Origin: a virus
Virus genome (UHGV): UHGV-1351772
Reading direction: 5' to 3' (one strand)
Length of the DNA: 64,000 bases
Positions 3,673 to 32,707 of the stretch are shown here, piece by piece. A program made the translations under genes and the position numbers. The number at the start of each line of letters is the position of its first letter. Positions within the stretch are counted from its first letter, which is position 1. The notes below the pieces were generated by a model that worked only from the letters and a program-made list of their open reading frames with translations, was not told the origin of the DNA and did not search any database.

Positions 3673-5235
3673 ATGAATAACAAAATGATGTTGATAACCG
3701 CCTTAGCCACATTATACGCTGAAAGTCTTCTGACCGATCCTGAAAAGGACCACGACATCATAAGAAAAGTGCTGTTAGAGGCTAAGCTTCCTGATTACGC
3801 AGAAGAAGGTGACGAACGTGCCGCCCTCGTCGAAATCAAGGATATCATCACATCCATCATAGACGGCGGTATGCCTTACGACCACACAAACGTCATGAAA
3901 CGTTTGAAACTGGCCACTACGCAAATACGTCCTCTATACGATACGATTACCAAATTCCTGGAAGATGATATTCCAGAAGAACCAGAAGCACGCATCGAGC
4001 ATCTTAATCGCCAAGTAGCACAATACTACTTTCAGTTACGTCAAGCTATTCAAGGCGTACAACTGAAACAAAAATTGGGTCGTACGTTAGGCGCACTGAA
4101 CGGCACTGAAACGCGTGTTGATTTACAAACGGCGCTCAACGACCTTAAGGATACCTTATCCACGTTCAGTGAACGCTCTCATAATAAGATTCCTTCTCTG
4201 GTAGGGGAATTGATTACTGATAATAAAGCACCTTTCGTGCATGTATTCGACTCTATCAGTAAGAAAGCGGCAGGGAACGGGTTGCGTACGGGGTGGAAAG
4301 CAATTAACCAAATGCTCGGTTGTAACAAAGGGATCACCGAAGAACTCTGGCTGATGCCTGCTCTTCCCTTTAACTGTAAATCATTATTCAGTTTATTGCT
4401 CTCTATTAGCATTCCTGTATTCAACACTCCAGAAAAGGTGATGGCGAATGTTAAAGGTGACCTACAACCGGTTATTCTGGATTTAAGTTTAGAAAACGAA
4501 TTGGATGTTAACTTGGCTTACGCGTATCAAGCACTTTACGGACACTTTGAAGGTACAGCTCCGGTAATGGTTGCACCTGAAACGGCAACTGACGAAGAAA
4601 AAGCGCTACACAATGCACAAATGTCAGATTACCTCTGTAGTAAAATGCGGGCAAACGGTTGGGAGTATATTTTCCAAAAACACACAAACTCCGATTTTAA
4701 AATTCACTATTTGAATGATTTGATTTTAGATTTAAAACGTCGAGGTTATCATGTAGCTGGAATACGCGGAGACTATTTCGGTACTATCAGCAAAGCAGGA
4801 CACGGTAACGGCATTGCGGGTAGTGACATTAAAGAAATTTATCGTATCGCGCGAAACATCCAAGTGGTACGTAATCGTGGTTTCCTCTTAGCACCACACC
4901 AAATCTCACCTGAAGGCAAAAAATTAAAAGCACTCGACCCAGCAAGTTTCTGTAAGAGCTTACCTGGTCGTGGTCTTTACGACAACTGCTCTAGCTTAGA
5001 CAACGAAGCTGACGGTGAGATGTATTTTAACAAACGTGTCGTCAGCGGACACAGCTATTTAGAAGTACAACGCGGTAAACACCGTACCATTATTGATACC
5101 AAAGAAGCTTATCATTATACTGTAATACCTTTCCGTGATGTTGGCATTTTGCCATGGGATTGTGATAAAGAAGAAACTGTAACAGCCTCGTCGATTAACG
5201 TATTTACCGGCGGCATGGGTGACGAACTCTTTTGA
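3673..5235 (+). CDS. hypothetical protein
   Basis: 520-aa ORF divergent from 3659; followed by hairpin terminator at 5236..5262. Confidence 0.6.
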   Translation: MNNKMMLITALATLYAESLLTDPEKDHDIIRKVLLEAKLPDYAEEGDERAALVEIKDIITSIIDGGMPYDHTNVMKRLKLATTQIRPLYDTITKFLEDDIPEEPEARIEHLNRQVAQYYFQLRQAIQGVQLKQKLGRTLGALNGTETRVDLQTALNDLKDTLSTFSERSHNKIPSLVGELITDNKAPFVHVFDSISKKAAGNGLRTGWKAINQMLGCNKGITEELWLMPALPFNCKSLFSLLLSISIPVFNTPEKVMANVKGDLQPVILDLSLENELDVNLAYAYQALYGHFEGTAPVMVAPETATDEEKALHNAQMSDYLCSKMRANGWEYIFQKHTNSDFKIHYLNDLILDLKRRGYHVAGIRGDYFGTISKAGHGNGIAGSDIKEIYRIARNIQVVRNRGFLLAPHQISPEGKKLKALDPASFCKSLPGRGLYDNCSSLDNEADGEMYFNKRVVSGHSYLEVQRGKHRTIIDTKEAYHYTVIPFRDVGILPWDCDKEETVTASSINVFTGGMGDELF

Positions 5236-14952: not shown

Positions 14953-14966
14953 TAAACAATCAGGGA

Positions 14967-16270: not shown

Positions 16271-16311
16271 GATTTATTTCAAGAACTGTACGGAACTACG
16301 AATCTAAATGA

Positions 16312-17583
16312 TTATTTAGATTTTTCGTAAGCACCGATACCAGCACCCAGGTAGCCATTCAGACCGCTAATAACGGTGTTAGCAACATAGCTAACTGCGC
16401 GGTTCAGGGTCTGGTAGTTCTTAACAGACCAATCGGCAGCTTGACGTGCGTTACGCAGGCCATCCCACTTGCTATCGTCTTTTTCGTTGTTCAGCGCCTT
16501 AGCAGCATTCTCAGCAGCCTGTTGCAGCTTCACGATTTCAGAATCGTAAGCACGGAAATCTTTCAGTACGGCTTCGAAGCCTTTACCGATCGCTTCCAGA
16601 GCAGAAGCAGCGCCAGCCATTTCAGAAACAGACGGAGTTTTCACGTCTTTATCGTCAGAAGCGTCGCCGGTGCTCATGAATGCGATTGCAGTGAACTTGT
16701 GGCCGCCAGCCAGTTCTTTAGTACCAGCCTGAATGTAAGCGTTGCCCGGCAGTGCCAGCAGTTTAGACGCATCACCTTTTTCAAAGTTCGGCAGAGTGTG
16801 TAGTTTAGAAGCAGCTTTACCAAACAGTTCTACCGGCTGATCACCACGCATTGCCTTGAATGCGTCATCGTCACCTTTGGTAACGGCAGTCACAGCTTCA
16901 CCAGCTTGTTTTTCCAGAGCACCGATGGAACCTTTAGCTTTACCAGCGGTAACTTCTTTCGCAATAGCGATAGAGCCAGCAGCATCGAATTTACCTTCGA
17001 TAGACAGCTTGGTGATAAAGCCACCAGAGATTTCATCTTTCTTCTGTTTGCCCAGCTTACGCAGCATTTCCTGATATTTCTTCGCACGTTTCTGTGCGGT
17101 CTTACCGACGTTGAAATATTTCAGTTTCAGGTCTTTGATCTTCGCAATCACTTCTTTACAGAACTGAATGAAACGATCGTAAAGATCTTTCAGGGTTTCT
17201 TTCCAACCTTCCTGTGCAGCAGCAGTCATACCACGACCACGGCGATAGGATTCGCGAGCCAGTTTAGTACGTTCCAGGCACCAACGACGTGCGATGGATT
17301 CCTGTGCCACTTCGTGCAGGGCAACCGCTTCTTCCGGCATTTCTTCACCGTTAGCAACGGCTTCTTCCGCCTGTTCGATAGCGTCTTCAGTACGCTCGGT
17401 ATCGGCAGCCAGGGTTTCACCGTCGGTTTCCAGCTGATCGAGCTGACCGTCGATAGATGCTACGTCCGCAAGTTGGACGTCCAGGTTCTCTTCTGCCGGT
17501 TCAACGTTGCTGATACCGTCGATTACTTCATCGGCCGCTTCCATCGATTCACGAGCGGCGCGAGTTTTTGCGAAATTTGCCAT
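16312..17583 (-). CDS. acidic protein, tandem paralog B
   Basis: 423 aa; MANFAKTRAARESMEAAD..., same shared motifs and C-terminus ...NGYLGAGIGAYEKSK. Confidence 0.6.
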   Translation of the reverse strand: MANFAKTRAARESMEAADEVIDGISNVEPAEENLDVQLADVASIDGQLDQLETDGETLAADTERTEDAIEQAEEAVANGEEMPEEAVALHEVAQESIARRWCLERTKLARESYRRGRGMTAAAQEGWKETLKDLYDRFIQFCKEVIAKIKDLKLKYFNVGKTAQKRAKKYQEMLRKLGKQKKDEISGGFITKLSIEGKFDAAGSIAIAKEVTAGKAKGSIGALEKQAGEAVTAVTKGDDDAFKAMRGDQPVELFGKAASKLHTLPNFEKGDASKLLALPGNAYIQAGTKELAGGHKFTAIAFMSTGDASDDKDVKTPSVSEMAGAASALEAIGKGFEAVLKDFRAYDSEIVKLQQAAENAAKALNNEKDDSKWDGLRNARQAADWSVKNYQTLNRAVSYVANTVISGLNGYLGAGIGAYEKSK

Positions 17584-19166: not shown

Positions 19167-20273
19167 TTAAAGAACTGGCTGAGCGCCAGAGCGATACGCT
19201 TCGATGATTTTATTTACATCGGCGCTACCAGACTTCGATTTACTAAAGTCAGATTTATCGAGTTCCTGAGAGCCGTTCTGACCACGGGTATAAATAGTGA
19301 CGCGATTCCAGGTGGTGTCCACAACAACGTAGTAGACGGTCAAGGTGTCTTTGAACACACGCTGACGGATATTGAAATCGTCAAATTCGCCACCTAGCTG
19401 TGCGGTCAAACCGTCGATGGTGTCTTGAGAAACCACCATAACGGAAGAAGCGTTATTGATAGACGGTGCCAGAGACAGCAAACCAGATAACCAGTTACCG
19501 TTCTTCTTCTCCACCATCTTACGGTAATAACCGGACTTATCGCGATAACGGTTCTTACGATATTCTTCTACCAGGTCGTTACAGAACGCAATGTCTTTTA
19601 CGTAACTCAACGCGCCAACGCGTGCACGCAGCCAACGTTCCCAGAATGTTTTCGTCTGGTCACTGAACGCAATCAGTGTTTCAATTTGTTCGGTCGGTAA
19701 GGATTTCACATCCAAACGTAAACGCATTGGGAGTTCGACTTTATTACCGTCACGTTCGAATGTTACTGAGAACATCTTCCCGTTGGACAACCCTTCTTGA
19801 TCGAAAAGCTGTTTAATCGGATCACCTTTCCCACCACTGACTGAACCTTTTGATTCTTGGGCAACCCGTCGGGAAGATTCACCGACCGCAATGCCGATTT
19901 TATCGTATGACGGTAAACCATAACGGGCAGATTCGCCGACCGCAAGCGCTGCTAAGCGGGAACCGCTGCGGACTGCATTATCGAGCGCACTACGACGTGT
20001 GCTGACCTGATCCAGTGTGCCGATAATATCGACATCCGGTACACCAGTTAACAGGGAGATAGCCGTTAGTTGGTTTCCTGCCAGCAAAATTTGGATTTTC
20101 TCCAGAATTCCCGGAAGGTAATCTAAACCCAGCAGGCTTTGTTCGACTAAGGTAATGTGCTCGTTATAGAGCACTGAGTTAAATTCCTCCATCGACTCCG
20201 CACGTGAACGAAACAGCATGGGAAGTCTGGAGAGGAAAGAGACAACGCTTGTCTCAAACGTTTTTTCTAACAT
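19167..20273 (-). CDS. hypothetical protein
   Basis: 368-aa ORF. Confidence 0.55.
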   Translation of the reverse strand: MLEKTFETSVVSFLSRLPMLFRSRAESMEEFNSVLYNEHITLVEQSLLGLDYLPGILEKIQILLAGNQLTAISLLTGVPDVDIIGTLDQVSTRRSALDNAVRSGSRLAALAVGESARYGLPSYDKIGIAVGESSRRVAQESKGSVSGGKGDPIKQLFDQEGLSNGKMFSVTFERDGNKVELPMRLRLDVKSLPTEQIETLIAFSDQTKTFWERWLRARVGALSYVKDIAFCNDLVEEYRKNRYRDKSGYYRKMVEKKNGNWLSGLLSLAPSINNASSVMVVSQDTIDGLTAQLGGEFDDFNIRQRVFKDTLTVYYVVVDTTWNRVTIYTRGQNGSQELDKSDFSKSKSGSADVNKIIEAYRSGAQPVL

Positions 20274-20299
20274 TTTCCTAATGAACTCCGGAGTTAAAG

Positions 20300-21598
20300 A
20301 TGAGTGACGAGACAGATAAGAACGATCCGGGGTATGACCCGAATACTGATTACGACGATTCTCTCCACAATCCGAATAATGCGGACGCAGTGCCTTCGGT
20401 CGCAGGGTATTTCGACGGACGGATTAGTAATGCTAACCCCCCGACGCCTTACGACGCTAATACTGAACTTACGGCATGGAACGATCGTATCCGTCTTACT
20501 GTAGGTTTGGGTCTTGCTGCGCAGCGTTTGACCAACCCCTACATGGGGTTCAACCATATGATGGCGTCTAACCCCACGCCAATCAACCGAGAATACGGTG
20601 GACTAACTTTTATTACCCGGCCCGATTTTAACCTGTGCTACGACAACATTGCTAAGTCTCGTAAAATGTCGAACATGGCAATGCAGCCAAAGGACTCCAT
20701 AGATTATTCGATTTTAGCTGCGCTTGACCCCGATTTTGAACTCGGATTTACGGACGCACCTATGGAAAACGGTAGGCGGAAGAATCGCTTAGGTACGCCG
20801 TTTATGCCTCAAGTAAAATTCGATAATCTACAAGCGTTCATACCAATACTCAGTACGCAGCTGATTAGCCTTAGTGGTGCACCCGATCAATCTATTGATA
20901 ACTGGATGGCAAGTGAAGGTTTAATGCGTGAACAGTGGGGGATGGTTGACTCTACCCACGAAGTTAACAACAGCTTTTCCATCAGCATGTCATTAAACAA
21001 CCCCTATGGCGACCCATTGATGAAAATGATGGGTGTGTGGCTGGAGTATATGTCTGGTGTGAAAATGGGTAAATTCCGTCCGAAAATGCGTAACTCCATT
21101 CAACGCAGAATCGATTATCAGTCGCGAATCTACGGGATGCGTTACGATGCCTTAGGGAACATCACCCGTTTCTGGACGATTTGCGTCGCTTGGCCGATGA
21201 ACGATAACGCGGGACAAATGGCGAACGTTGATAACTCCAAACCGCAGTTAAACGACGACGTTACGATTACTATTAACTGGCAAGCTATCGGTGCGCGGTT
21301 TAACGATCCATTATACATGGAAATGTTTAACCGCACCGTTTCCATTTTTAATCCGGATATGCTCCCGCAGCCAGGCTCTATTCAATCGGGCAACTTCATC
21401 CCGATTGCTAGTGACCAATTAGTACCCATCGCGCCACAATTGCTGCCGTTGTTTAACTATTACGGTTATCCACACATCGATTCCGTGCGACGCAAACTTA
21501 CCTGGTATGTTTACCAGGCAGACTACCAACATATTCTCAAGAAAGCGGGATTACTGGATAACGCTAATGCCGCTTCACTACCGACAGGTAATAACTGA
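20300..21598 (+). CDS. hypothetical protein (possible virion protein)
   Basis: 432-aa ORF; divergent from 20273; stop overlaps start of next gene. Confidence 0.6.
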   Translation: MSDETDKNDPGYDPNTDYDDSLHNPNNADAVPSVAGYFDGRISNANPPTPYDANTELTAWNDRIRLTVGLGLAAQRLTNPYMGFNHMMASNPTPINREYGGLTFITRPDFNLCYDNIAKSRKMSNMAMQPKDSIDYSILAALDPDFELGFTDAPMENGRRKNRLGTPFMPQVKFDNLQAFIPILSTQLISLSGAPDQSIDNWMASEGLMREQWGMVDSTHEVNNSFSISMSLNNPYGDPLMKMMGVWLEYMSGVKMGKFRPKMRNSIQRRIDYQSRIYGMRYDALGNITRFWTICVAWPMNDNAGQMANVDNSKPQLNDDVTITINWQAIGARFNDPLYMEMFNRTVSIFNPDMLPQPGSIQSGNFIPIASDQLVPIAPQLLPLFNYYGYPHIDSVRRKLTWYVYQADYQHILKKAGLLDNANAASLPTGNN

Positions 21599-24552
21599 TG
21601 AGTTCTACGACTTACGATACTTTGGCAAAGAACATATTGTTGTTTGCCCACCATCCGGCAGCGATGCAAACACTGCTCTTGAATCAGCTTCTGGATGTAG
21701 AAGACGCCGAAGGCCAAATAGTGTTACGTGACCCAACAGACCCTGTTGTTTATTTGGCGGAAATGGGGACAATGTTGGGCCATGCAACGCTTATGGGGTT
21801 GCAGGAATCAGTGCCAAAGACATTTCCATCGATGGCGCAAACGTACGATGACCTGTTCCGACATATGTCCGATGTGGACTACGTTGATGTGTTCGCCCAA
21901 CCTTCAACCACCGAGCTGTTGTTATTAATCGATGTTGATAGTTTAATCTCCAAGGCGTACCCTTTACAGATTGCGGGTGTGCGTAAAGTTGTTATCCCAC
22001 GAGACACAGTTTTCACGGTGTCAGGTTACACCTTTGCCATCCAGTACCCGATTGAAATCAGGGTACTTCCTTACGGTACCAATGAAAACCCGGCGTTTCA
22101 GGTTCTTTGGATTACCGAAACACAGTCACCTATTTCTCCTGTGTCGACGAATGCGCTGGATTGGGAGTTGACGTCGTCTAACACCACGGCCTCGCAACTA
22201 CTGGCAATCCATATCCCGGTCATGCAGTATGCGGTGAAAAACGAAAGTGACACCGTTGCTGGGAAAAATACCTTTGTCATGACCCGTCATTACACTAACA
22301 AATTTTTCTACGTAAGGGTATGGATGAAATCAACCAACGATAACAAGTGGGTTGAAATTCAGCATACGCACAGTCGTGACGTTTACGACCCCAACACCCC
22401 AACCGCGTTAATCCAGGTCGGTGACGGTGTTATACGGTGTACTATCCCCTCGATCTACATGGCGAAGAACTTGGTCAGCGGCGAAATTCGTATGGATATC
22501 TACACGACCTTAGGGCCTTTAAGTGTCGATATCTCGGCTTATCCGTCTGACGAATACACGTTCACGTTGCGTGATTTAAACGGCGAATATGACGAAAACT
22601 ACGTTAACCCGATTAAGAGTTTTTCCATCAAACAGATGGCTGCAAAAGCAGGTAAAATGTTGTCAGGTGGTCGTAGCCAGCTCACCTTCGAAGATTTACG
22701 TACACGTGTAGTCAATAACGCTGTAGGTGCACGAAAACTCCCTGTAACGGAGAAACAATTAGAAGCAACGGTTTCTGACTACGGTCTAACGTTGTCGAAA
22801 CCAAACGACTATGTTACTAGCCGTACATACTTCTTAACGGCACCGATGCTCGAATCGACAATTCCCAATGTCAGTTCTCCCATCGGGACAATCACGGCAC
22901 CGTTCTATTTCTCCTGGAATGAATTGGTTAATCTACCAACGGTAAAGGTTAACGGTAATCGCCTGACGATTCTTCCTGACACACTTTATCGGTTCACCGA
23001 CACCAGCTTGACGGTTGATGCGGAGATGACGGTCTTGGCAAAAACCATGCGTAAAGAAGATTTGATTAATGCGGCCAACGCTAATCGTTATCTCTTTACA
23101 CCATTCCATTACGTTGTGGATATCAACAACAAAGCCATTGACGTTCGTATTTATCAATTAGATAAACCGACGTTAAACTCCAAACGCTTTATCGCCACTA
23201 ACGTAAGCACGGAACTCAGTGTGGTAACAGCCGACTACACTATCGAAAAGACCGAAGCCGGTTATGTATTGCGTACCGTAACGAAGTCAGAGGCACCTTA
23301 TCAAGCACTGACCGACGATCAAGTTTTTGCACAGCTATCGTTCCGTCCACGTAACGCAGACAACACTTTAGCGTACATCAACGGTACGTTAGTCGGTAAA
23401 CAGGGTAGTGAGCGCGTATGGGAATTCCTGCTGGAAACCAACCTAGACGTTGACCGTAACGACGAATTAATGCTAACGAATACACGCATTAGTAGTAGCA
23501 CACCCACGGAAACGCCTGTACCGCTGATGACGGACTTCAACCTGTTCTACGGCTGCACCGGTTATTATCCTGGTAATTACGAACGTGCGGAAATGGATGC
23601 GTTAATCACTGCCCCGTCACGCGATGCTATTGGTATTACTCACGAGATTTTCAAAATCGAATTGGGTAAAGCAATGACGTACTACTGGCGTAAAGCGCGT
23701 GCTGTTACTGACAGCATTAACTACCAGTATTACGAAAAAGACGTGATGGCAACGTGGGAAATCGATGTGGTTAAACGCGATGAGAACGGTGTACCAATCT
23801 ACACCTACGACGCAGGTCGCACGCCACCACTTCAGATTACGTACGAGCATCGTAAAGGTGATCCTAAACTTGACGAGGCTGGACAACAGATCGTCCTACA
23901 TCGTGAAGGAGACTTAGTTAAAGACGAATTCGGCAATCCGAAAATTGCGAAATCGCGTTCTATCAAATTCCGTAGTGAGATGGCGGTATTCGATGCGCGA
24001 TATAAATTCGCGACGACGCCTTCTGCAAAATCGTATCTGAACGAGGTTATCGAAAACATCGTTAACTACGTTACGGTAATACTGCCAACTTTGAAGCCTA
24101 TGTTGTTAGAACGTACCGAAGGTTACTTTGTGCCGATTACAACAATGGGGTATATCGACGCCCGTACCGAGGACGGGGTAGTAACGCCTGTCCCTGCGGA
24201 AAACCAGTTCACCGTGCGTTATTACCTAACAGCTGCTAACCGTAATAACACCGAGCTCTTAACGCAGATTCGTAAGAAAACGTCTCAGGTTATCAATGAT
24301 TACTTGGGTAGTCATCTAACAATCTCTGCAACAGAAATCGGTAATGCATTGAGTGAAACCCTCGATGCGTCTATTATCGGTGTTGAACTCGATGCTATGG
24401 GACCAGATAAAGACATGCGTCTCTTTACCGTTGTTTCGGAAGCATCAAGAGCAACTATAGGTAAAAAGCTGGACATTGAGGCCAGCGGCGACATCGGACT
24501 TAAAGACGATATCGTTATTGTCTATAACCGTCACGATACTACCGCCGATTAA
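21598..24552 (+). CDS. hypothetical large protein (possible virion structural protein)
   Basis: 984-aa ORF translationally coupled to 20300..21598; followed by strong terminator. Confidence 0.6.
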   Translation: MSSTTYDTLAKNILLFAHHPAAMQTLLLNQLLDVEDAEGQIVLRDPTDPVVYLAEMGTMLGHATLMGLQESVPKTFPSMAQTYDDLFRHMSDVDYVDVFAQPSTTELLLLIDVDSLISKAYPLQIAGVRKVVIPRDTVFTVSGYTFAIQYPIEIRVLPYGTNENPAFQVLWITETQSPISPVSTNALDWELTSSNTTASQLLAIHIPVMQYAVKNESDTVAGKNTFVMTRHYTNKFFYVRVWMKSTNDNKWVEIQHTHSRDVYDPNTPTALIQVGDGVIRCTIPSIYMAKNLVSGEIRMDIYTTLGPLSVDISAYPSDEYTFTLRDLNGEYDENYVNPIKSFSIKQMAAKAGKMLSGGRSQLTFEDLRTRVVNNAVGARKLPVTEKQLEATVSDYGLTLSKPNDYVTSRTYFLTAPMLESTIPNVSSPIGTITAPFYFSWNELVNLPTVKVNGNRLTILPDTLYRFTDTSLTVDAEMTVLAKTMRKEDLINAANANRYLFTPFHYVVDINNKAIDVRIYQLDKPTLNSKRFIATNVSTELSVVTADYTIEKTEAGYVLRTVTKSEAPYQALTDDQVFAQLSFRPRNADNTLAYINGTLVGKQGSERVWEFLLETNLDVDRNDELMLTNTRISSSTPTETPVPLMTDFNLFYGCTGYYPGNYERAEMDALITAPSRDAIGITHEIFKIELGKAMTYYWRKARAVTDSINYQYYEKDVMATWEIDVVKRDENGVPIYTYDAGRTPPLQITYEHRKGDPKLDEAGQQIVLHREGDLVKDEFGNPKIAKSRSIKFRSEMAVFDARYKFATTPSAKSYLNEVIENIVNYVTVILPTLKPMLLERTEGYFVPITTMGYIDARTEDGVVTPVPAENQFTVRYYLTAANRNNTELLTQIRKKTSQVINDYLGSHLTISATEIGNALSETLDASIIGVELDAMGPDKDMRLFTVVSEASRATIGKKLDIEASGDIGLKDDIVIVYNRHDTTAD

Positions 24553-24568
24553 GAAAAAAATAATAAAA

Positions 24569-24606
24569 GTTACCCTACTCCTTCGGGAGTAGGGTAATCT
24601 TTTTTA
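24569..24606. terminator. bidirectional terminator, repeated element copy 1
   Basis: gttaccctactcc-ttcg-ggagtagggtaat, UUCG loop, T-run; between convergent genes; identical 30-nt copy at 29929. Confidence 0.65.
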
Positions 24607-26337
24607 ATCAATCAATTTATTGAACTTCCCACCTTTCACAAGTGGGTTGGACTTGGCACGCTTCAACACCGTTGCCATAGACCCTGCGGCCTTGCACCAC
24701 ATGTTAATCATGTTTGCACTGTGCGCAACAGAATCCCAGACATTGCGGTCAGGGTTTAACACCATCATCGTGGTCAGCTCACGACCGTGAAGGTTAAAGT
24801 TTTCCCCTCGCGTCACTTGGTCTTTAAACGCCTGTTCCATCGCCTGCCATTTCTGACTGTCGACGCCAGAACGTGATTGGCGTGCCATCTCTTTCAAGGT
24901 TTTTACAACCTGATCGACACGTTTCTCCAACACCTTATACTTGTCTAGCGCAGTATTCGCTACGCCATCAGAGATACCACTACGTGCCAGTGTAATCAGA
25001 CATGCCAACAGCTCACGGTAATCCCCGTTACTTAAGCTCAACTCCTGGCGCATCATCTCCAGGTTTGTTGTGGAGCCAAAGAAAGAGTTAGCACCGATTG
25101 ATGCAATCATCCAACCGTTGTCTAATTCACGTGTGGTATAACCGAGAAGCTCAACCTTGTCTTTTACACGCAAAATTGGACCAGGACTACCTTTCTGTCG
25201 TCCAAATTCCGTGGCAGTATATTCAATTCGGCCATTGATCTCGCCTAACGCACGAACCAGATGCACAGCGGCGACTTGGTTCTCTTGCGATGTGCCTACC
25301 TTCGGATTATTCGACAGGTAATACGTTTTGATGTCTTTCAGCGACTGGTCTAAGTCCTGAAGCGCACCGGCAAAACTGTCAAGAATCGTGCTCATTAAGT
25401 TGAACTGAATATCTGACGGAATGTTCACCCCAGCACGTTTCACATCAGGCGGCAAACCGTTATAGACTTCCTCAGCAACCCCGAAGTCAAATACACCGTA
25501 ACCGATGTTCGTCCGAAGCAGCGTATCGAGCAGATCCTGAATAACCTGCAGCTCATTCTGCCGACGTTTAAGATGGTTCTTAAACGTATCGATAAACGGT
25601 GATTTACCTAACGCAGCGGCGAGTTTATTTAGAAACTCTTCAGCTTCCATGTTCACGAAAACGTCGTCAGCCAGCGAAAGAGATAACTCCAGGTTGCTTA
25701 ACTCGCTGTCTTTCAAACCTTTTGACAGTACCAGATAAACTTCTTTCAGTACGGTTGTTTTCAGGCGCTCTGTGAAAGGAACATCGGCCAACTTCTCTTC
25801 CAGTTTCTCGCGATAGTCGTTCCCGTCAATGTTCGCAGCACCTGCAAAAGGAACGGCGTTGCTGATAATCCAACTGAGGATTTTCATTATCCCCATCATC
25901 ACCATCACGATGAGGCTAATCTTACCAAAATTAGCGTAAGACTCTAATGCCACCACCGTTTCTTTCTGGTGTGTTTTGGAATAATTCGACGTCAGGACAC
26001 TTTGTACAGCCTTTGGGATCGTACCAGGACGCAACGATTCAGTCGCTACAGCAACATCACGGTTCAACCCTGCTTTACGTATTTCCCGTAAGATCGCTTC
26101 AATCTGCGCGATAAGGCGAGAGCCGTAAATCAGGTCTGCTTCATTACGTTGCATGTAGAGATTGAGTTGGCTAACAGAATCGATGCGTTCTTCCATGCGC
26201 TGTTCTAACAGTGCAGGAAGTTCATCGAGTTTCCATTGCGGTTGCGCAATGTTTGCTGTCATCTCCATACTCATACCAGCTCGCCTCGCGTTTCTTCCAT
26301 ATAGAATTTCACCGTTTCCATGAAACGTTCCAGCCAC
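24604..26337 (-). CDS. hypothetical protein with one predicted hydrophobic (membrane-like) segment
   Basis: 577 aa; hydrophobic stretch ISLIVMVMMGIMKILSWIISNAV. Confidence 0.55.
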   Translation of the reverse strand: MAGTFHGNGEILYGRNARRAGMSMEMTANIAQPQWKLDELPALLEQRMEERIDSVSQLNLYMQRNEADLIYGSRLIAQIEAILREIRKAGLNRDVAVATESLRPGTIPKAVQSVLTSNYSKTHQKETVVALESYANFGKISLIVMVMMGIMKILSWIISNAVPFAGAANIDGNDYREKLEEKLADVPFTERLKTTVLKEVYLVLSKGLKDSELSNLELSLSLADDVFVNMEAEEFLNKLAAALGKSPFIDTFKNHLKRRQNELQVIQDLLDTLLRTNIGYGVFDFGVAEEVYNGLPPDVKRAGVNIPSDIQFNLMSTILDSFAGALQDLDQSLKDIKTYYLSNNPKVGTSQENQVAAVHLVRALGEINGRIEYTATEFGRQKGSPGPILRVKDKVELLGYTTRELDNGWMIASIGANSFFGSTTNLEMMRQELSLSNGDYRELLACLITLARSGISDGVANTALDKYKVLEKRVDQVVKTLKEMARQSRSGVDSQKWQAMEQAFKDQVTRGENFNLHGRELTTMMVLNPDRNVWDSVAHSANMINMWCKAAGSMATVLKRAKSNPLVKGGKFNKLID

Positions 26338-26714
26338 AGATTAACGGTATCCCATACATCGTCGCCCAAGGCTTCATTGAAAATCTCACGGACAGAGAAG
26401 TTTTCAATAGCGCGACGGCCGCCCCAAGCGCTATCGTAGCGGTTACAAAACAGTGCCACTGTCAAATCTTCAATACTGCCCAGATCGACACAATAAAGCT
26501 CGTTTACGTCCGAAACAACATTTTTCATCAGCGGGCGAAGCTTTAGCTGCGACACTTCATTCGACCCAAACGGGCCATTATCGGGCATATCGGTATTATA
26601 AGCCAAAGCGAATGCGACCAGGCCAGTCAGCGCGCGTTGTGCCTGTACACCTTTACCCTCGTTCGTACGTTTAAAGTCCAGAACCAGGGAATTTAAAGAA
26701 ACTTTATGCGTCAT
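26271..26714 (-). CDS. hypothetical protein
   Basis: 147-aa ORF. Confidence 0.45.
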   Translation of the reverse strand: MTHKVSLNSLVLDFKRTNEGKGVQAQRALTGLVAFALAYNTDMPDNGPFGSNEVSQLKLRPLMKNVVSDVNELYCVDLGSIEDLTVALFCNRYDSAWGGRRAIENFSVREIFNEALGDDVWDTVNLWLERFMETVKFYMEETRGELV

Positions 26715-26728
26715 GATTTTACCTTTAC

Positions 26729-28096
26729 TTATTCGACATTAAACATGGCTGAAGCAATACGAAGATCGTTCGACATATACTTCCCAATCGCACGCTGGTA
26801 ATCAACTGCAGCACGTGAGCGACGACCCTTCGGCGTTAAAGTATTCCAGATAAACTGATACAAGTTATCTTTATCTTTTACGGTTTCTAATAACTTGTCG
26901 ATAACCGCAATACCATCTAAAATACGTTTACGTTGCTCGTTAGCCGCCTTCGTATTTTTGTCTTTAATCGTATTGAGTTCTTCAACGAGTGTACGTCGCA
27001 TTGCCTCAAAACGCTGCTGCGGCGGATCGTAAATGGTGTTATCCGGGTCATTTAAGATCATTCCGAACGTCACGGAAATCACTGGAATAATTGGAATCGT
27101 AGAAGAGACTATTAACGCGGTCACGCGGAAAAGTTCTACTGTCAAATGGACACCCATGTTCATATACGCTGAGTTCCGCAGCAAATAGAACGAACTGGTT
27201 TCCATTTTATACAGTGCAGAGGCCAGATAAGGAGCGCCTCCGAAACGGGAAGCAAAATCATCCGCAGCACGTTCCCACGTCCTGTTAGCAAAGCCTTGAC
27301 TACCGCTAATGAACGGACGATCTAATAACAGCTGTGTGACCAAGTGCATGTAGACGTTTTCTTTTTTGTACTCAGTACAAATCGTTTCTGGCTGATTCAC
27401 TTTCGTGTTCAGCATCTTCTCTACGTCTTTAACAATGCGCAAGCGGACAGTTTGGTCTTCTGTTTCCATGATGCGGTTAGCCGCAGCATCTGCCAGCAAA
27501 TCAGTCACCACGGTACGCATTAGCGTACGGAAATAATAATAGATGTGGCCGACTTCATGAAGAATCACCGAGGCGATTTCCAGATCGGTCAGATTTAATT
27601 TTTCCAGCAGCACCGGGGTAAGATAAAGCGGAGAACCCACTTTGCTTAAATCGCCACTGATTTTTGCGCTGCTGTCATCGATTGATGTGTTCAGTTCGTT
27701 TTCTTTGATGAACTTACTGTACATATCCAGGTCTTTGTTACCTGCGTACAGTGCGCGAGTCATCGATGCAATGATTGGACTGTTTGCATCCAATTTCGGT
27801 GGTTCTACGCCTGCAAAAGCAACGTCAACAAGACCCAGTTCGCTACCGTTCTTAAAGTGAATCGTAATGCCGATATTCTTAAATACCCAATCCGAAACCC
27901 CGGCACTTTCGTAGCCAGCAGGACTGAAATCGCCTGCTCCACGAAACTTAGCAATAATATCAGCCAATTCTGCCAGCTTCTTTTTGTCTTGGAATTTAAT
28001 CGATTCTGCGGCTACAACCTTTGCATCCGCAACTGATGCAATGTGATTTTGCCAATATCCCATTTGTGTTTCCTTTTGAGAAATTACATTACCCAC
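26729..28096 (-). CDS. hypothetical protein
   Basis: 455-aa ORF. Confidence 0.55.
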   Translation of the reverse strand: MGNVISQKETQMGYWQNHIASVADAKVVAAESIKFQDKKKLAELADIIAKFRGAGDFSPAGYESAGVSDWVFKNIGITIHFKNGSELGLVDVAFAGVEPPKLDANSPIIASMTRALYAGNKDLDMYSKFIKENELNTSIDDSSAKISGDLSKVGSPLYLTPVLLEKLNLTDLEIASVILHEVGHIYYYFRTLMRTVVTDLLADAAANRIMETEDQTVRLRIVKDVEKMLNTKVNQPETICTEYKKENVYMHLVTQLLLDRPFISGSQGFANRTWERAADDFASRFGGAPYLASALYKMETSSFYLLRNSAYMNMGVHLTVELFRVTALIVSSTIPIIPVISVTFGMILNDPDNTIYDPPQQRFEAMRRTLVEELNTIKDKNTKAANEQRKRILDGIAVIDKLLETVKDKDNLYQFIWNTLTPKGRRSRAAVDYQRAIGKYMSNDLRIASAMFNVE

Positions 28097-28134
28097 AAAT
28101 CAGTATAGCAGCCGCTAGATTTGAGAGTGAAATC

Positions 28135-29916
28135 ATGAATAACTATTACGCACCGGAAGACGTTATTGCCAAGGAGTGCAAGTTTGTTTCTTACGCAACC
28201 GATCAGCAGAAAGAAAACGACTTCGTGCTCATAAAGGAGGTCGTCCATACTAAAGATGGCAGATATATCCCACGAATTGTCATGCGTGAAAATCTGAAAC
28301 GGCCCATCTACATTACTTTACCACAACATCGTAACCACAAGGAAAAGAAAGAATACGAAGAACGTAGTAAGTGCCAGGAATATTTAACAACGGACGTAAT
28401 GATGTCCTCAACCATACAGATGGGTCTGGGGATTCGTTTTCCCGATAAAAAGAAACCACTCCGTCAGGTTTGTACTTCACCGTATGTTTACTGGGCTGAT
28501 TTGCCCATTACTAGCTGGATTAAAGAAAAGTACATACGTAAATGGCCTAATGCTGTTTCACCTAACCGCATCTGTGTATACGACGTGGAAACTCGAGAAG
28601 AAGACAAGTCTCGAGACCCCTGGATTATGAGTTTTGTTTTAGACGACGAAATTCATTTCTTTGCTACGAAAGACTACGTCACCCGTTGCGGACGTGAAAA
28701 CTTTGAAGCGCGACTCGTCAAACGTGCTCAAGAATTGCTTTCTAAAATCGCTTTTCGTGGAAAAGACGAGAACGACAACCCTATCGTTAAATACAAAAAC
28801 GTTATCGACGGTTACAAAATCTTCGTTTACGAATGTCTCAATTCGGGTTGTTGTATTCAACGGATGTTTGAGGAAATTCACCCTCGTCTCCCTGACTTAC
28901 TCGTCGCATGGAACCACGAGTTCGATATTTCACGTATGTTAGAAGCTTTAGAAGCAGCGGGCATTCCACCGGAAGACGTCTTCTGTCATCCAGACGTGCC
29001 GAAACAGTACCGTCGTGTCTACTTTAAGAAAGACGAAGCATCGAAGAAAACGGAATCAAAGTCATTAACAAAAGCGCCTTCGCAACAGTGGCACATTCTT
29101 TATTGTACGGCGTCATTCTACTGTGTAGATGCAATGTGTCTATTCCGTTCATTGCGTGTACACGAGGGACAACGCCCCTCTTACAAACTTAACGCGATAC
29201 TGGAAACCGAGTTGGGTTTAAACAAGTTGGACTTACCAGAACTACCCTACGAGGAAAAGTTGGAATGGCACTTAAAGGCGCAGAAAGATTTCCCGTTAGA
29301 ATACTGCGTTTATAACATCTTCGATAACTTGATGATTGTTCTGCTGGATAAAAAGACGAACGATCTGTCTTCTGCTATTTCAGTTTTGGCGGGTTATTCG
29401 ATGTATGATATTTTCCCTTCTCTACCGAAGCGAATCTGTATTGCATACACGTATTACCTCTATGAACAGGGTCTGGTTATCGGTTGTGTGGGTAGCGCGA
29501 TGCGTAACGATTTCGACAATGAAGTCATTGGGACGGATGGTTGGATTGTTACATTGACTGCGTGTATGAACGCAGAGAATGGGCTACGAAACATCATCAA
29601 GGAAGTTGATGATTTCTACACGGCTTTCCGTGGGCAAACTGCGGATGCTGACTTAACCCAGGCATACCCATCTGCAACGAACATGATGAACCAGTCTCGT
29701 GAAACAACGTTAATCGAGCTATTGAGCATTCACGGTGTTCCTGAAGAGGTGCGGCGTCGTGTCGGTATTAACCTTACTGCGGGGCGTGTCAATGCAATGG
29801 AAATCGCGACAGATTTCTTCCTGTTGCCCGATAAAAACGACGTCTTAGAAGCTTTTCTACGTAGACAAGGAGAAACGATTACCGATCCTTTTGAATATAT
29901 CAAAGCTGCAAAGTAA
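28135..29916 (+). CDS. family-B DNA polymerase, N-terminal part (3-5 exonuclease domain plus motif A)
   Basis: Exo I VYDVETRE, Exo II WNHEFDI, YKLNAILETELGLNKLDL block, Exo III YCVYNIFDNL, motif A DLTQAYPS; start moved to ATG 28135 to avoid overlap with convergent gene. Confidence 0.7.
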   Translation: MNNYYAPEDVIAKECKFVSYATDQQKENDFVLIKEVVHTKDGRYIPRIVMRENLKRPIYITLPQHRNHKEKKEYEERSKCQEYLTTDVMMSSTIQMGLGIRFPDKKKPLRQVCTSPYVYWADLPITSWIKEKYIRKWPNAVSPNRICVYDVETREEDKSRDPWIMSFVLDDEIHFFATKDYVTRCGRENFEARLVKRAQELLSKIAFRGKDENDNPIVKYKNVIDGYKIFVYECLNSGCCIQRMFEEIHPRLPDLLVAWNHEFDISRMLEALEAAGIPPEDVFCHPDVPKQYRRVYFKKDEASKKTESKSLTKAPSQQWHILYCTASFYCVDAMCLFRSLRVHEGQRPSYKLNAILETELGLNKLDLPELPYEEKLEWHLKAQKDFPLEYCVYNIFDNLMIVLLDKKTNDLSSAISVLAGYSMYDIFPSLPKRICIAYTYYLYEQGLVIGCVGSAMRNDFDNEVIGTDGWIVTLTACMNAENGLRNIIKEVDDFYTAFRGQTADADLTQAYPSATNMMNQSRETTLIELLSIHGVPEEVRRRVGINLTAGRVNAMEIATDFFLLPDKNDVLEAFLRRQGETITDPFEYIKAAK

Positions 29917-29928
29917 AAAAAAATAAAC

Positions 29929-29966
29929 GTTACCCTACTCCTTCGGGAGTAGGGTAATACTTTTAT
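29929..29966. terminator. bidirectional terminator, repeated element copy 2
   Basis: Identical gttaccctactccttcgggagtagggtaat; between convergent genes. Confidence 0.65.
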
Positions 29967-30472
29967 GCCGCGTTGAAGCAGTAAGCCAGTAAGTGTTGCA
30001 GCTCTGGATCGGTCACACGTTGTACCAAACGTCCAACGTTGTCACGCTGAGCAAAGTTTGCTTTATCCTGAGAATTTGCGAAACGTACTAACATGTTGAT
30101 AAACACGACGTATGTTTCACGTTCAGCGGAATCGTAAAACCAATCTAAATGGTAGTTCACATTCGGATAGTAGAAGATACCACGTTTGTGTTTAATTGCA
30201 GCTTCAACGAACACGTTGAACGCATCAATGAATGCTTGGCCACGCAGTTCAAATAACGTACGGAACGATTGATGCAGCTTACGGAAAGCGTCGTCAGCTT
30301 CTGGGGTATCTTTCGGTTTATTTTGGCTAATTGCCCCGCCAGCCTCATCGAGCTGAGTAGCAATAAGTCGCACCTGGTACGCATCATCCTGACTGTAAGT
30401 TACCGCATTTTCCTCAGCGCGTCTTACCGCTGATGGGCGTTCATCTTGTGTCGAAATATCTTTAGTTGCCAT
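29963..30472 (-). CDS. hypothetical protein
   Basis: 169-aa ORF. Confidence 0.5.
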   Translation of the reverse strand: MATKDISTQDERPSAVRRAEENAVTYSQDDAYQVRLIATQLDEAGGAISQNKPKDTPEADDAFRKLHQSFRTLFELRGQAFIDAFNVFVEAAIKHKRGIFYYPNVNYHLDWFYDSAERETYVVFINMLVRFANSQDKANFAQRDNVGRLVQRVTDPELQHLLAYCFNAA

Positions 30473-30485
30473 TGGCTAATAATCC

Positions 30486-31805
30486 TTACGTAATGTGGAT
30501 CGATGGATTAAATTCGTGTACCACTGTCTCTTTACCGTGCATCGCGGCCATTGCCACGGACATAACGTTAGAGAACGCCGAGGATATATCCGCAGCGATT
30601 GCGCGAGGTTCTTCCCCTTTATTCGCAGACGAACACGCTGTGCAGGTGTCGATGTGGCCATACTGACATAAGATGGGTCGGCGTAACCGCACCACTTTAC
30701 CTAACTGCTGTTTTAAATATTCCTCAGTCAGTGGTGTCAGTTTACCATTAACCATCGCATTCATCCCAACGTAACGTTTTACGTTATCATCGGTAATCAC
30801 AACCGGATACGTTAGTTTCGTTCCACAGTCACCAGGGACGATTCGGTGGTTCTGGAAAATCATCTGGATAATACGTACCTGCTCACCCCCTTTCGCTGTT
30901 TCCGCACCACGAGAGAACGAACCTTCACGGATAGAGTTGAATTTCGCGACCAGGTTTTCCATCCCCGCCTTATCAACTTCAACTAATGCGTTCGGAATGA
31001 GCGTGTAATGGCCCCCTTCCTGAAAAGACGATTCAATACCGTACATCAGCATTAATTTACGTCGACGCATCCGCGATTTCGGCGAGTTATAAAACTCAAT
31101 AGATTGGTCACCCGACAACCACTCTTTATCTAACTCATCCAGCGCTTTTTCAATCTTAACGATAACGGCAGGATCGTCTAACTCGTCTTTGTGCTTCAAC
31201 AGTAACGCATCGCGGATTTTATACGCATCAGGATGCACCGTGAGGCTTCGTAACGTACCTGTTGGTGCAATACCTGACGTGAGCGGTGCGAGCTCGTGTA
31301 AGCCGCTTACAAAGCGCTCAATCATACTCGGTCGAATTGCACCTTCGTTTTCTGGCTCATCGGTTTCATGGTCTAAACAACGACGATGCATCTCTTTGCG
31401 ATATTCCAACGGGTTTTGTGAAATCGCCAGATAAGGTAAGCGTGTACCAAATGCATACCAGATAACAATCCAGTTAAAAACGTATCGTCCTACTGTCGTG
31501 GGAATAGGACCGTCTAAACCGGGATAATCGTCAGGGCGTAGCTCGAACTGTTCTTCAGGGACAAACAGCTCCTGGTCCTTTACACCGTCAGTAATCGGTT
31601 CCCAACTGCCCTTACCGTCTTCTACAGCGTAATAATGCGGTAAGCCGTCGATATACGTTATATCAAACACTTCGGGTTCTTCGCGCCCTGTTGGAAACAC
31701 CGACATGTTAAAAATAGCAATACGCCAAACCAATCGACGCCAAGCTTCTGCTTTACATGCCGCTACTAAGAACTCAAACCTCGTCATCGTGCTCTGCCTC
31801 CTCAA
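30486..31805 (-). CDS. hypothetical protein
   Basis: 439-aa ORF. Confidence 0.55.
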   Translation of the reverse strand: MRRQSTMTRFEFLVAACKAEAWRRLVWRIAIFNMSVFPTGREEPEVFDITYIDGLPHYYAVEDGKGSWEPITDGVKDQELFVPEEQFELRPDDYPGLDGPIPTTVGRYVFNWIVIWYAFGTRLPYLAISQNPLEYRKEMHRRCLDHETDEPENEGAIRPSMIERFVSGLHELAPLTSGIAPTGTLRSLTVHPDAYKIRDALLLKHKDELDDPAVIVKIEKALDELDKEWLSGDQSIEFYNSPKSRMRRRKLMLMYGIESSFQEGGHYTLIPNALVEVDKAGMENLVAKFNSIREGSFSRGAETAKGGEQVRIIQMIFQNHRIVPGDCGTKLTYPVVITDDNVKRYVGMNAMVNGKLTPLTEEYLKQQLGKVVRLRRPILCQYGHIDTCTACSSANKGEEPRAIAADISSAFSNVMSVAMAAMHGKETVVHEFNPSIHIT

Positions 31806-32640: not shown

Positions 32641-32707
32641 TACAAGGGGTTCATACCAAAGCGAAAAAAAAGAAAAAGCTAAGGGAGTCGTAAAGACTCC
32701 CTTACAT

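What the first reader, a model, noticed from the sequence alone, without database searches (positions are those of the whole stretch)
24569..24598. Identical 30-nt UUCG-loop terminator used twice between convergent genes
The sequence gttaccctactccttcgggagtagggtaat occurs at 24569..24598 and again at 29929..29958, both times between a plus-strand gene end and a minus-strand gene end, flanked by A-runs and T-runs. Exact reuse of a long bidirectional terminator suggests a propagated cassette or a protein or RNase recognition site beyond simple termination.
Basis: seen in the sequence. Interest (0 to 1): 0.4.

Follow-up and report, generated by a model that had tools for sequence, protein, structure and literature searches.

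The report
Recycled terminator hairpin in jumbo phage
The two identical 30-base hairpins are ordinary two-way transcription stop signals between converging genes of a giant phage, identical because this phage group copies one favoured hairpin stem from stop signal to stop signal.

Summary
In detail: GTTACCCTACTCCTTCGGGAGTAGGGTAAT occurs exactly twice (24569-24598, 29929-29958), each between convergent gene ends, with A-runs upstream and T-runs downstream.

The window comes from an SPN3US/phiEaH2-like (phiKZ-related) jumbo phage. Both copies have the anatomy of bidirectional intrinsic terminators: a 12-13 bp stem, about -21 to -24 kcal/mol on either strand, and U-rich "YUUAU" tails like the mapped terminators of phiKZ and 201phi2-1.

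They are not unique. A 99.94%-identical metagenomic genome has five copies of the 11-bp stem, and Erwinia phage Huxley has an 11-13-member family. The 22-nt core occurs in many SPN3US-like phages and in no bacterial genome.

At three orthologous terminators the flanks align but the stem is a different sequence. Stems are therefore swapped between sites, probably by ectopic gene conversion or template switching.

Loops differ in nearly every genome and are often reverse-complemented between 97%-identical genomes. Stems change by paired substitutions. This argues against a sequence-specific protein or RNase site.

Verdict: a new member of a known kind (conserved terminator families of jumbo phages; T4 PeSL-like cassettes), with a modestly interesting evolutionary twist. 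No transcript data were available.

The parts
24569..24598 (.). Copy A of the terminator palindrome (13 pairs counting a terminal G-T, 12 Watson-Crick; loop TTCG on +, CGAA on -)
   Evidence: Exact match. Scored as terminator-like on both strands. RNA fold -23.9 kcal/mol on + and -23.5 on -, z -6.5 and -6.0.
29929..29958 (.). Copy B of the same palindrome, identical over 30 nt
   Evidence: Exact match. Terminator-like on both strands. RNA fold -23.2 kcal/mol on + and -21.2 on -.
24553..24568 (.). A-rich tract upstream of copy A. It templates the U-tract CUUUUAUUAUUUUUUUC for minus-strand transcripts.
   Evidence: Sequence. The minus-strand tail contains TTAT.
24599..24609 (.). T-tract CTTTTTTAATC after copy A (U-tract for plus-strand transcripts). 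It overlaps the stop codon (24604-24606) of the minus-strand gene.
   Evidence: Sequence; ORF coordinates.
29917..29928 (.). A-rich tract upstream of copy B. It templates CGUUUAUUUUUUUUU for minus-strand transcripts.
   Evidence: Sequence.
29959..29966 (.). Short tail ACTTTTAT after copy B (a YTTAT-type tail). It overlaps the stop codon (29963-29965) of the minus-strand gene.
   Evidence: Sequence; ORF coordinates. The YTTAT motif is described for phiKZ terminators in PMC10914365.
21598..24552 (+). 984-aa gene ending 16 nt before copy A. It is the syntenic counterpart of Huxley gp65, annotated 'putative virion structural protein'.
   Evidence: phrog_3248, E=0; synteny with Huxley annotation.
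24604..26337 (-). 577-aa gene of unknown function ending 5 nt after copy A (convergent partner)
   Evidence: phrog_8131, 2.4e-144.
28135..29916 (+). Family B-type DNA polymerase gene ending 12 nt before copy B. The start is inferred at the ATG in frame with the 28021 ORF.
   Evidence: phrog_3011 DNA polymerase, 1.8e-250. Huxley gp61 is annotated 'putative B family DNA polymerase'.
29963..30472 (-). 169-aa gene of unknown function ending 4 nt after copy B (convergent partner). A phage RNA polymerase beta-subunit gene lies upstream of it on the minus strand.
   Evidence: phrog_7825, and phrog_2962 for 30486..31805.

Best explanation
Each 30-mer is a bidirectional, factor-independent transcription terminator that also caps the mRNA 3' end. 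Each serves a pair of convergent genes in an SPN3US-like, phiKZ-related jumbo phage that transcribes with its own multisubunit RNA polymerases. On either strand the RNA forms a 12-13 bp hairpin followed by a U-rich (YUUAU-type) tail. The A-run on one side is simply the template of the U-tract for the opposite strand. The two copies belong to a clade-specific paralogous family of terminator palindromes with stem core CC(C)(T)ACTCC/GGAGT(A)(G)GG. This genome holds five copies. Their identity is best explained by ectopic copying between terminators rather than by any requirement for that exact sequence. The copying could be non-allelic gene conversion or template switching, helped by the shared A/T tracts and by the self-templating nature of a palindrome. 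Shown here: the anatomy, the copy number, the clade distribution, stem swaps at orthologous sites, loop flipping and compensatory stem changes. Inferred: that termination actually happens at these sites, which polymerase is involved, and the molecular mechanism of copying.
For: Anatomy:
- The hairpin is stable on both strands, -21 to -24 kcal/mol against about -8 to -10 for shuffles.
- T-rich tails follow it on both strands, and each copy sits 4-16 nt from the stop codons of convergent genes.

Genomic setting:
- The window has 23 strong hairpins. 37% of their tails contain TTAT against 5.7% background, and 39% are T-rich against 2%.
- Terminator-like sites exceed shuffles in two of the three 20-kb sections scanned: 50 vs 19 and 34 vs 19, but 16 vs 19 in the third.
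- Sigma-70-like promoters are below chance expectation, consistent with transcription that does not use the host polymerase.

Experimental precedent in relatives:
- phiKZ has 133 mapped termination regions. Most of its intrinsic terminators share a stem-loop plus YTTAT motif, and 6 are bidirectional between convergent genes (PMC10914365).
- 201phi2-1 has 132 mapped 3' ends, 15 bidirectional, conserved motifs, and 8 terminators validated in vivo (PMC11512511).
- AR9 RNA-seq shows strong termination at predicted terminators (PMC5312081).

Family membership:
- The 22-nt core is exact in 6 viral contigs at non-orthologous positions.
- 82 GenBank phage records match, mostly (59 of 82) Salmonella and Erwinia phages; the strong matches are SPN3US-like jumbo phages, with up to 9 places per genome.
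- There are 0 hits in 185,579 bacterial and archaeal genomes.
- Contig CYGL01000001.1 is 99.94% identical to the window over 14.85 kb and has 5 copies of the 11-bp stem.
- In Huxley the family has 11 of 66 strong hairpins, and the next family has 3. I observed 43 near-identical arm pairs against a maximum of 10 or 30 in 1000 permutations of each kind.

Copying:
- At three orthologous terminators the loop, T-run, promoter-like motif and RBS align, but the stem is a different sequence. These are window 789-812, 14920-14948 and 5341-5363, compared with the family stem in Huxley, L007, phiEaH2 and L002.
- Huxley's site-B ortholog is identical, including a rare ATCG loop and about 47 nt in all, to another Huxley terminator 141 kb away.
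- The TTACCC vs CTACCC difference between two sublineages occurs at both A and B.

Structure rather than sequence is selected:
- 9 of 11 pairs show compensatory double changes, with the inner 9 pairs almost never broken.
Against: - There are no transcript 3'-end data for this phage or for any SPN3US-like phage (one search found no such paper), so termination itself is inferred.
- The published phiKZ terminator consensus does not match anywhere in the window at up to 3 mismatches. The link to the mapped phiKZ terminators is by architecture, not by sequence.
- The + strand tail of copy B has only four consecutive T residues.
- The statistical test for within-genome A-B similarity is weak (P about 0.025) and is confounded by phylogeny.
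- The shared T/C change at A and B could be parallel selection for one extra base pair.
- Part of the covariation evidence is circular, because the paralogs were chosen as perfect hairpins.
Confidence: 0.7

Rival explanations
1. The conserved stem is a sequence-specific recognition element for a phage or host factor (a termination or antitermination factor, an RNase, or an RNA-handling protein). Its reuse would reflect the need for that exact sequence.
For: - The 11-bp stem is 100% identical at five sites in one genome, and it stays identical in relatives whose flanks are only about 80% identical.
- The exact 22-mer recurs in phages that are only 66-70% identical to the window.
- The family is far larger than base composition predicts.
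Against: - Loops differ in nearly every genome (TTCG, TCCG, CGGA, CGATG, CGAGA, TCTCG, TTTTCG, CGAAAA, CGATAA, TGACTA and more) and are often inverted.
- Across the clade the stem changes through paired substitutions and paired indels (CCCACTCC, CCTACTCC, CCCTCTCC, CCTACTCTCC) while pairing is kept.
- Most other terminators in the same genomes use unrelated stems.
- Unrelated hairpin stems, for example at site C, are equally conserved at about 80% divergence. Orthologous stem conservation is therefore ordinary purifying selection on pairing.
Confidence: 0.08
2. No recent copying took place. The copies descend from an old duplication, or arose by convergence on an optimal terminator sequence, and have stayed identical purely through purifying selection on a bidirectional hairpin.
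For: - Bidirectional terminators are doubly constrained, because a G-U wobble on one strand is an A-C mismatch on the other. Stems therefore evolve slowly, and other stems are also unchanged at 80% identity.
- All terminators here share a grammar of C/T/A-only 5' arms and a CC-UUCG-GG closing, which shrinks sequence space.
Against: - Three orthologous terminators have conserved flanks but unrelated stems. Converting one into the other would need 7 or more double substitutions within otherwise roughly 80%-identical intergenic DNA.
- Near-identical paralogs of 26 to about 47 nt, including rare loops and flanks, occur within single genomes.
- The family size exceeds composition-preserving permutations.
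Confidence: 0.12
3. The two copies act as a PeSL-like or MITE-like recombination module. As 30-bp repeats that are both direct and, being palindromes, inverted, they would mediate excision, inversion or exchange of the 5.36-kb segment between them.
For: - In T4-type phages, repeated terminator/promoter cassettes do mediate modular shuffling and mini-circle formation (PMC2839356, PMC4122927).
- In relatives, tandem-context copies are followed by a conserved promoter-like motif, giving a composite terminator-promoter cassette.
Against: - The enclosed segment carries core genes (DNA polymerase, a virion protein homolog) and is collinear in all 12 relatives retrieved. No inversion or deletion is seen.
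- Copies A and B have no promoter part.
- There are no target-site duplications, and no transposase or endonuclease gene was noted in the block between the two copies.
Confidence: 0.05
4. The hairpins act mainly as 3'-end stabilisers or processing stops against 3'-to-5' exonucleases. Transcription would actually end further downstream.
For: - C(UUCG)G hairpins are exceptionally stable and were first noticed in T4 intercistronic regions (Tuerk et al. 1988, from my own knowledge).
- The stems here are longer (12-13 bp) than typical intrinsic terminators.
- The + strand U-tract of copy B is short.
Against: - T-rich or YTTAT tails are strongly enriched directly after the hairpins on the transcribed strands.
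- In convergent pairs, read-through would produce antisense RNA into essential genes.
- The two roles are not mutually exclusive.
Confidence: 0.1

Closest known systems
Conserved intrinsic-terminator motif families of phiKZ-like giant phages (phiKZ: Putzeys et al. 2024, PMC10914365; 201phi2-1: PMC11512511)
   Same: - Many terminators in one jumbo-phage genome share a stem-loop sequence motif.
- The 5' arm is C-rich and the 3' arm G-rich, followed by a YTTAT-type tail.
- A subset are bidirectional and sit between convergent genes.
- The genomes encode their own multisubunit RNA polymerases.
   Different: - The stem sequence differs (CCCTACTCC here, CCYCCCC in phiKZ). The phiKZ consensus has no match in the window at up to 3 mismatches.
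- The stem here is longer (11-13 bp vs about 7).
- The phage clade differs (SPN3US-like, on Enterobacterales).
- No 3'-end mapping exists here.
- As far as I read those papers, they do not report stem swapping or loop inversion.
PeSL (promoter-early stem-loop) composite terminator/promoter cassettes of T4-type phages (Arbiol et al. 2010, PMC2839356; Comeau et al. 2014, PMC4122927)
   Same: - Short conserved terminator stem-loops are repeated many times in a large virulent phage genome.
- They serve as substrates for recombination between non-allelic sites.
- In relatives, tandem-context copies of this hairpin are followed by a conserved promoter-like motif.
   Different: - PeSLs contain a sigma-70-type early promoter, cluster in hyperplastic regions, and flank variable ORFans that they insert or delete.
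- Copies A and B have no promoter, flank core genes, and no indel or mini-circle is evident.
- What moves here is the stem itself, not the genes between copies.
C(UUCG)G tetraloop hairpins of phage T4 intercistronic regions
   Same: An extra-stable C(UUCG)G-closed hairpin at gene ends of a large virulent phage.
   Different: In this clade the UUCG loop is not conserved at these sites. It mutates and flips freely.
Hairpin-mediated small 'flip-flop' inversions in plastid genomes (Kim & Lee 2005, as summarised in PMC12928735)
   Same: Loops of 4-7 nt bounded by 11-13 bp inverted repeats are found in both orientations among very close relatives.
   Different: The setting is a phage genome. The hairpins are transcription terminators, and the same palindromes also appear to be copied between loci.
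Bacterial REP/BIME extragenic palindromes (from my own knowledge)
   Same: Multi-copy extragenic palindromes at the 3' ends of genes that can stabilise upstream mRNA.
   Different: REPs are imperfect palindromes mobilised by RAYT transposases and are present in hundreds of copies. This hairpin is absent from all bacterial genomes searched, and no RAYT-like gene was looked for or noticed.

Membership tests
Bidirectional intrinsic (factor-independent) terminator | Stable G+C-containing stem-loop in the RNA of both strands | tested here: met
   -23.9 and -23.5 kcal/mol for copy A, -23.2 and -21.2 for copy B. z-scores range from -4.4 to -6.5, and no shuffle folds as well.
Bidirectional intrinsic (factor-independent) terminator | U-rich tract immediately 3' of the stem on both strands | tested here: met
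   All four tails passed the scan (at least 5 T in 8). The + strand tail of copy B is the weakest (ACTTTTAT).
Bidirectional intrinsic (factor-independent) terminator | Located between the 3' ends of convergent genes | tested here: met
   Stop codons lie 4-16 nt from the hairpin on each side.
Bidirectional intrinsic (factor-independent) terminator | Transcript 3' ends and reduced read-through at the site | not testable with these tools
   No RNA data were available. Precedent exists only in phiKZ, 201phi2-1 and AR9 (PMC10914365, PMC11512511, PMC5312081).
phiKZ-type conserved terminator motif | Match to 5'-BCCYCCCCHWWDGGGRRGGBYTTATKYYGT-3' | tested here: not met
   0 matches in the window at up to 3 mismatches.
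phiKZ-type conserved terminator motif | Architecture: C-rich 5' arm, G-rich 3' arm, tetraloop, then a YTTAT tail | tested here: met
   The arms are CCCTACTCC / GGAGTAGGG. TTAT lies within 14 nt in 3 of the 4 tails of A and B, and in 37% of all hairpin tails against 5.7% background.
T4-type PeSL cassette | Stem-loop physically coupled to a strong early promoter | tested here: not met
   Copies A and B abut two stop codons with no room for a promoter. In relatives, tandem-context copies are followed by the motif GATAGATATTATC, so the coupling exists elsewhere in the family.
T4-type PeSL cassette | Copies flank variable genes, and recombination between copies creates indels or circles | tested here: not met
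   The A-B interval holds core genes and is collinear in the 12 related loci.
REP/RAYT-type mobile extragenic palindrome | Associated RAYT (IS200/IS605-like) transposase and presence in bacterial chromosomes | tested here: not met
   The core is absent from 185,579 bacterial and archaeal genomes. I did not search the whole phage genome for a RAYT gene.
Known Rfam RNA family | Covariance-model match | tested here: not met
   Nothing at E up to 1 overlaps either copy in 20000-34000.

The most novel reading that the evidence does not exclude
The CCCUACUCC hairpin may be more than a generic terminator that gets copied by accident. It could be an actively spreading regulatory module in nucleus-forming SPN3US-like phages. 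Its stem would be favoured because a phage factor (a termination, RNA-processing or RNA-export factor) reads it. Its rapid loop flip-flop would create population-level heterogeneity in which strand receives the ultra-stable UUCG loop, tuning directional termination or mRNA stability.
Probability: 0.07. Interest if true: 0.7.

Novelty: new member of a known kind. Interest (0 to 1): 0.3.

Why it matters
For annotation, these sites can be marked as bidirectional terminators. The stem family, together with the YTTAT tail, gives a practical signature for finding transcription-unit ends in SPN3US-like jumbo phages, for which no transcript maps exist.

For evolution, the data show that terminator stems behave as interchangeable modules. 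They are swapped between non-allelic sites while loops, U-tracts and promoters stay in place, and their loops invert on a time scale of about 2-3% sequence divergence. If that holds generally, terminator palindromes are recombination and template-switch hotspots in giant phage genomes. They are also a caution for alignment-based phylogenetics of intergenic DNA.

It is not a new kind of system.

Tried and rejected
- **Rfam:** an E-value-threshold search over 20-34 kb found nothing at the sites. A search of the hairpin-dense 5-7.7 kb region gave only sub-threshold chance hits.
- **tRNA/tmRNA scan:** none in the window.
- **Host origin of the hairpin:** 0 exact cores in 185,579 bacterial and archaeal genomes.
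- **Sequence membership in the phiKZ terminator motif:** no match.
- **Sigma-70 promoters near the copies:** none relevant, and counts are below shuffles across the window.
- **Concerted evolution of A and B by permutation of stem distances:** only P about 0.025, and not corrected for phylogeny, so I treat it as suggestive.
- **'Site B was replaced in Huxley relative to its nearest relative L019':** dropped as a strong argument. L019 and Huxley are only 70.7% identical, and the two site-B stem types (CCTCACTACC vs CCCACTCC) are not clearly unrelated.
- **PeSL-like excision or inversion of the A-B interval:** no rearrangement in 12 related loci.
- **L005:** I first assumed L005 (closest IMG/VR relative) was the site-A ortholog. 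Its flanks do not match the window. It is a third site (D) outside the window, and the true site-A ortholog there has loop TCCG.

Full report
**1.

The 30-mer GTTACCCTACTCCTTCGGGAGTAGGGTAAT occurs exactly twice, at 24569-24598 and 29929-29958. No further copies appear at up to 3 mismatches, and none appear in 100 shuffles. The similarity extends to 54 nt at 91% (D8).

Copy A lies between the stop codon of a 984-aa plus-strand gene (21598..24552) and that of a 577-aa minus-strand gene (24604..26337). Copy B lies between the DNA polymerase gene (..29916, +) and a 169-aa minus-strand gene (29963..30472). The minus-strand stop codons sit inside the T-tracts, only 5 nt from the hairpin base, so the arrangement is very compact.

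**2. What genome this is**

The window belongs to an SPN3US/phiEaH2-like jumbo phage, related to phiKZ and carrying split multisubunit RNA polymerase genes. It is only 71-77% identical in DNA to anything in GenBank's phage set.

A metagenomic contig, CYGL01000001.1 (228,572 bp), is 99.94% identical to the window over 14.85 kb. I treat it as effectively the same phage.

**3. Anatomy and likely function**

- On both strands the RNA folds into a 12-13 bp hairpin of -21 to -24 kcal/mol, with z-scores of -4.4 to -6.5.
- T-rich tails follow on both strands. The A-run on each side is the template of the opposite strand's U-tract.
- The window has 23 perfect hairpins of at least 8 bp. 37% of their tails contain TTAT against 5.7% background, and 39% are T-rich against 2%.
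- Sigma-70-like promoters are under-represented.

This matches what has been mapped experimentally in phiKZ-like phages:
- In phiKZ, most intrinsic terminators share a stem-loop followed by YTTAT, and six are bidirectional between convergent genes (PMC10914365).
- 201phi2-1 has 132 mapped 3' ends, 15 of them bidirectional, with shared sequence motifs and eight terminators validated in vivo (PMC11512511).
- AR9 shows strong termination at predicted terminators (PMC5312081).

The published phiKZ consensus itself does not match the window. The relation is therefore one of architecture, not sequence membership. Rfam has nothing at these sites.

**4. It is one of a family, not a unique pair**

- The 22-nt core CCCTACTCCTTCGGGAGTAGGG is exact in six IMG/VR contigs. 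These include the phiEaH2-, SPN3US- and Huxley-sized genomes, and the flanks differ.
- BLAST finds it or close variants in 82 GenBank phage records. Most (59 of 82) are Salmonella or Erwinia phages, the strong matches are SPN3US-like jumbo phages, and there are up to 9 places per genome.
- It is absent from 185,579 bacterial and archaeal genomes.
- Allowing any loop, the closest relatives have 4-5 copies of the 11-bp stem TACCCTACTCC.
- The near-identical genome CYGL01000001.1 has five. A and B have loop TTCG. Three lie outside the window: D (convergent genes, loop CGAA, about 47 nt like A apart from one mismatch and the loop), E (CGATAA) and F (TGACTA, followed by an RBS and ATG).
- I fetched the complete Huxley genome. 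There the family has three exact cores plus variants such as TCCTACTCC/GGAGTAGGA and ACCCACTCC/GGAGTGGGT.
- It forms a cluster of 11 of 66 strong hairpins, and the next largest cluster has 3. I observed 43 near-identical arm pairs against a maximum of 10 (column shuffle) or 30 (within-arm shuffle) in 1000 permutations each.
- Family members occur after tandem genes, including the major capsid gene, as well as between convergent genes.

**5. Orthologous sites: structure is kept, sequence drifts, loops are free**

I retrieved the DNA-polymerase neighbourhood, which spans sites A and B, from 12 relatives. A perfect hairpin is present at site A in all 12, and directly after the polymerase stop codon (site B) in 11 of 12.

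- **Stems.** In genomes that are 80-98% identical, the stem is unchanged.
- **Loops.** The loops vary widely. Site A shows TTCG, TCCG, CGGA, TTTTCG and CGAAAA. Site B shows TTCG, CGATG, CGAGA and TCTCG.
- **Flips.** Many loop pairs are exact reverse complements. L016 and L025 are 97.0% identical, yet all three hairpins in the region (A, B and the unrelated site C at window 32680-32704) have flipped loops. The window and L017 (97.7%) differ by a flip at site C. Sites D, E and F show the same behaviour.
- **Not an assembly artefact.** The arms (11-13 bp) are much shorter than assembler k-mers, so I infer that these are real minute inversions. This kind of inversion is known from plastid hairpins (PMC12928735, citing Kim & Lee 2005).
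- **More distant relatives.** There the stems change by paired substitutions or paired indels (CTACCCACTCC, CTACCTACTCC, CTACCCTCTCC, CCTACTCTCC and others).
- **Covariation.** An RNAalifold analysis of 35 family members gives 11 pairs. Nine show compensatory double changes and the inner nine are almost never broken. Part of this is circular, because the paralogs were chosen as perfect hairpins.

Unrelated stems such as site C are equally conserved at 80% identity. Conservation at an orthologous site is therefore ordinary selection for pairing. Together with the free loops, this argues against a sequence-specific protein or RNase site.

**6. Why identical copies exist: stem swapping**

Three orthologous terminators show conserved flanks with an unrelated stem.

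- **After the major capsid gene.** The window has GTCTAAGCCC-TTCG-GGGCTTAGAC (789-812) where Huxley has ACCCTACTCC-TTCG-GGAGTAGGGT. The loop, T-run, the promoter-like GATAGATATTAT motif and the RBS all align.
- **At window 14920-14948.** GAGAACCACC is replaced by the family stem in Huxley and L007, next to an identical CAGATAGATATTATC motif.
- **At window 5341-5363.** AGGGGGTG is replaced by the family stem in phiEaH2 and L002.

Further support:
- Within Huxley, the site-B ortholog shares about 47 nt, including a rare ATCG loop, with a terminator 141 kb away.
- In the window's lineage, the TTACCC vs CTACCC difference between two sublineages is present at both A and B.
- A permutation test of within-genome against between-genome A-B stem distance is only weakly significant (P about 0.025) and is not corrected for phylogeny.

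I conclude that stems are copied between non-allelic terminators, and that the A = B identity is a recent event of this kind.

The mechanism is inferred. It could be gene conversion or replication template switching, seeded by the shared A/T tracts and loop-proximal bases, with the palindrome able to correct its second arm from the first. The closest described analogue is the PeSL terminator/promoter cassette of T4-type phages (PMC2839356, PMC4122927). However, A and B lack a promoter, flank core genes, and show no associated indel or inversion in 12 relatives.

**7. Verdict**

'Propagated cassette' is right in spirit. 'Recognition site beyond termination' is not supported.

This is a new, undescribed member of a known kind. 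A search for SPN3US terminators in the paper library found nothing relevant. The stem-swap and loop-flip dynamics give it some added evolutionary interest. The main gap is the absence of any transcript 3'-end data.

Noticed in passing
window 32680-32704 (site C), also 24581-24584 and 29941-29944; loci L015-L017, L025, L016: Terminator loops are reverse-complemented between near-identical genomes. Site C reads GTAAA in the window but TTTAC in L017 (97.7% identical). L016 and L025 (97.0% identical) differ by flips at all three hairpins in the region. These look like hairpin-mediated minute inversions of the kind known from plastids.
   Followed up: partly
window 14868-14886(-), 42108-42126(-), 47307-47325(-); looser copies at 7312-7342, 45900-45924, 55741-55771, 55821-55851, 63623-63653: A repeated motif CAGATAGATATTATCTTAG (read on the minus strand) sits about 15-35 nt downstream of terminator T-runs and upstream of an RBS. 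It is conserved in the same position in Huxley. It is probably a phage RNA polymerase promoter, which would form terminator-promoter cassettes. 3 matches at up to 3 mismatches against 0.02 expected.
   Followed up: partly
window 5240-6240: An ORF-poor, hairpin-dense stretch that does not align with relatives. It contains a roughly 320-nt tandem unit (5601-5658 vs 5921-5978, 86%), each unit with three consecutive hairpins next to a 50-56-aa minus-strand ORF. Only sub-threshold Rfam hits were found. It could be a variable small-gene or sRNA region.
   Followed up: partly
window 5240-5257: The hairpin GGGGAGC-TTCG-GCTCCCC lies right after the stop codon of the 520-aa gene (3673..5235) and is followed by CTTATG. 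It is conserved in phiEaH2, and in L002 it carries a compensatory change (GGGAGGC...GCCTCCC).
   Followed up: no
window 14965-15761 vs 16310-17157: Two adjacent segments share 74-87% identical stretches at about 1.34-1.40 kb spacing (repeat families D1, D6, D16). This suggests tandem paralogous genes on the minus strand.
   Followed up: no
whole window: Sigma-70-like promoter matches are fewer than in shuffles in all three 20-kb sections (19 vs 28, 26 vs 32, 17 vs 34). This is consistent with host-polymerase-independent transcription.
   Followed up: no
whole window; L048 (CYGL01000001.1), L017, L015: This phage lineage is represented only by metagenomic contigs of about 220-229 kb, at 94-99.9% identity. 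It is no more than 77% identical to any deposited phage genome, so it is probably an uncultured genus-level relative of the SPN3US and phiEaH2 groups.
   Followed up: partly
Huxley 73430-73455 (L011 23430-23455): Just upstream of Huxley's swapped-in family hairpin, the sequence CTAAGCCTTAGGC resembles the arms of the window's different hairpin at the orthologous site (CTAAGCCC...GGGCTTAG). It may be a remnant of the displaced terminator.
   Followed up: no
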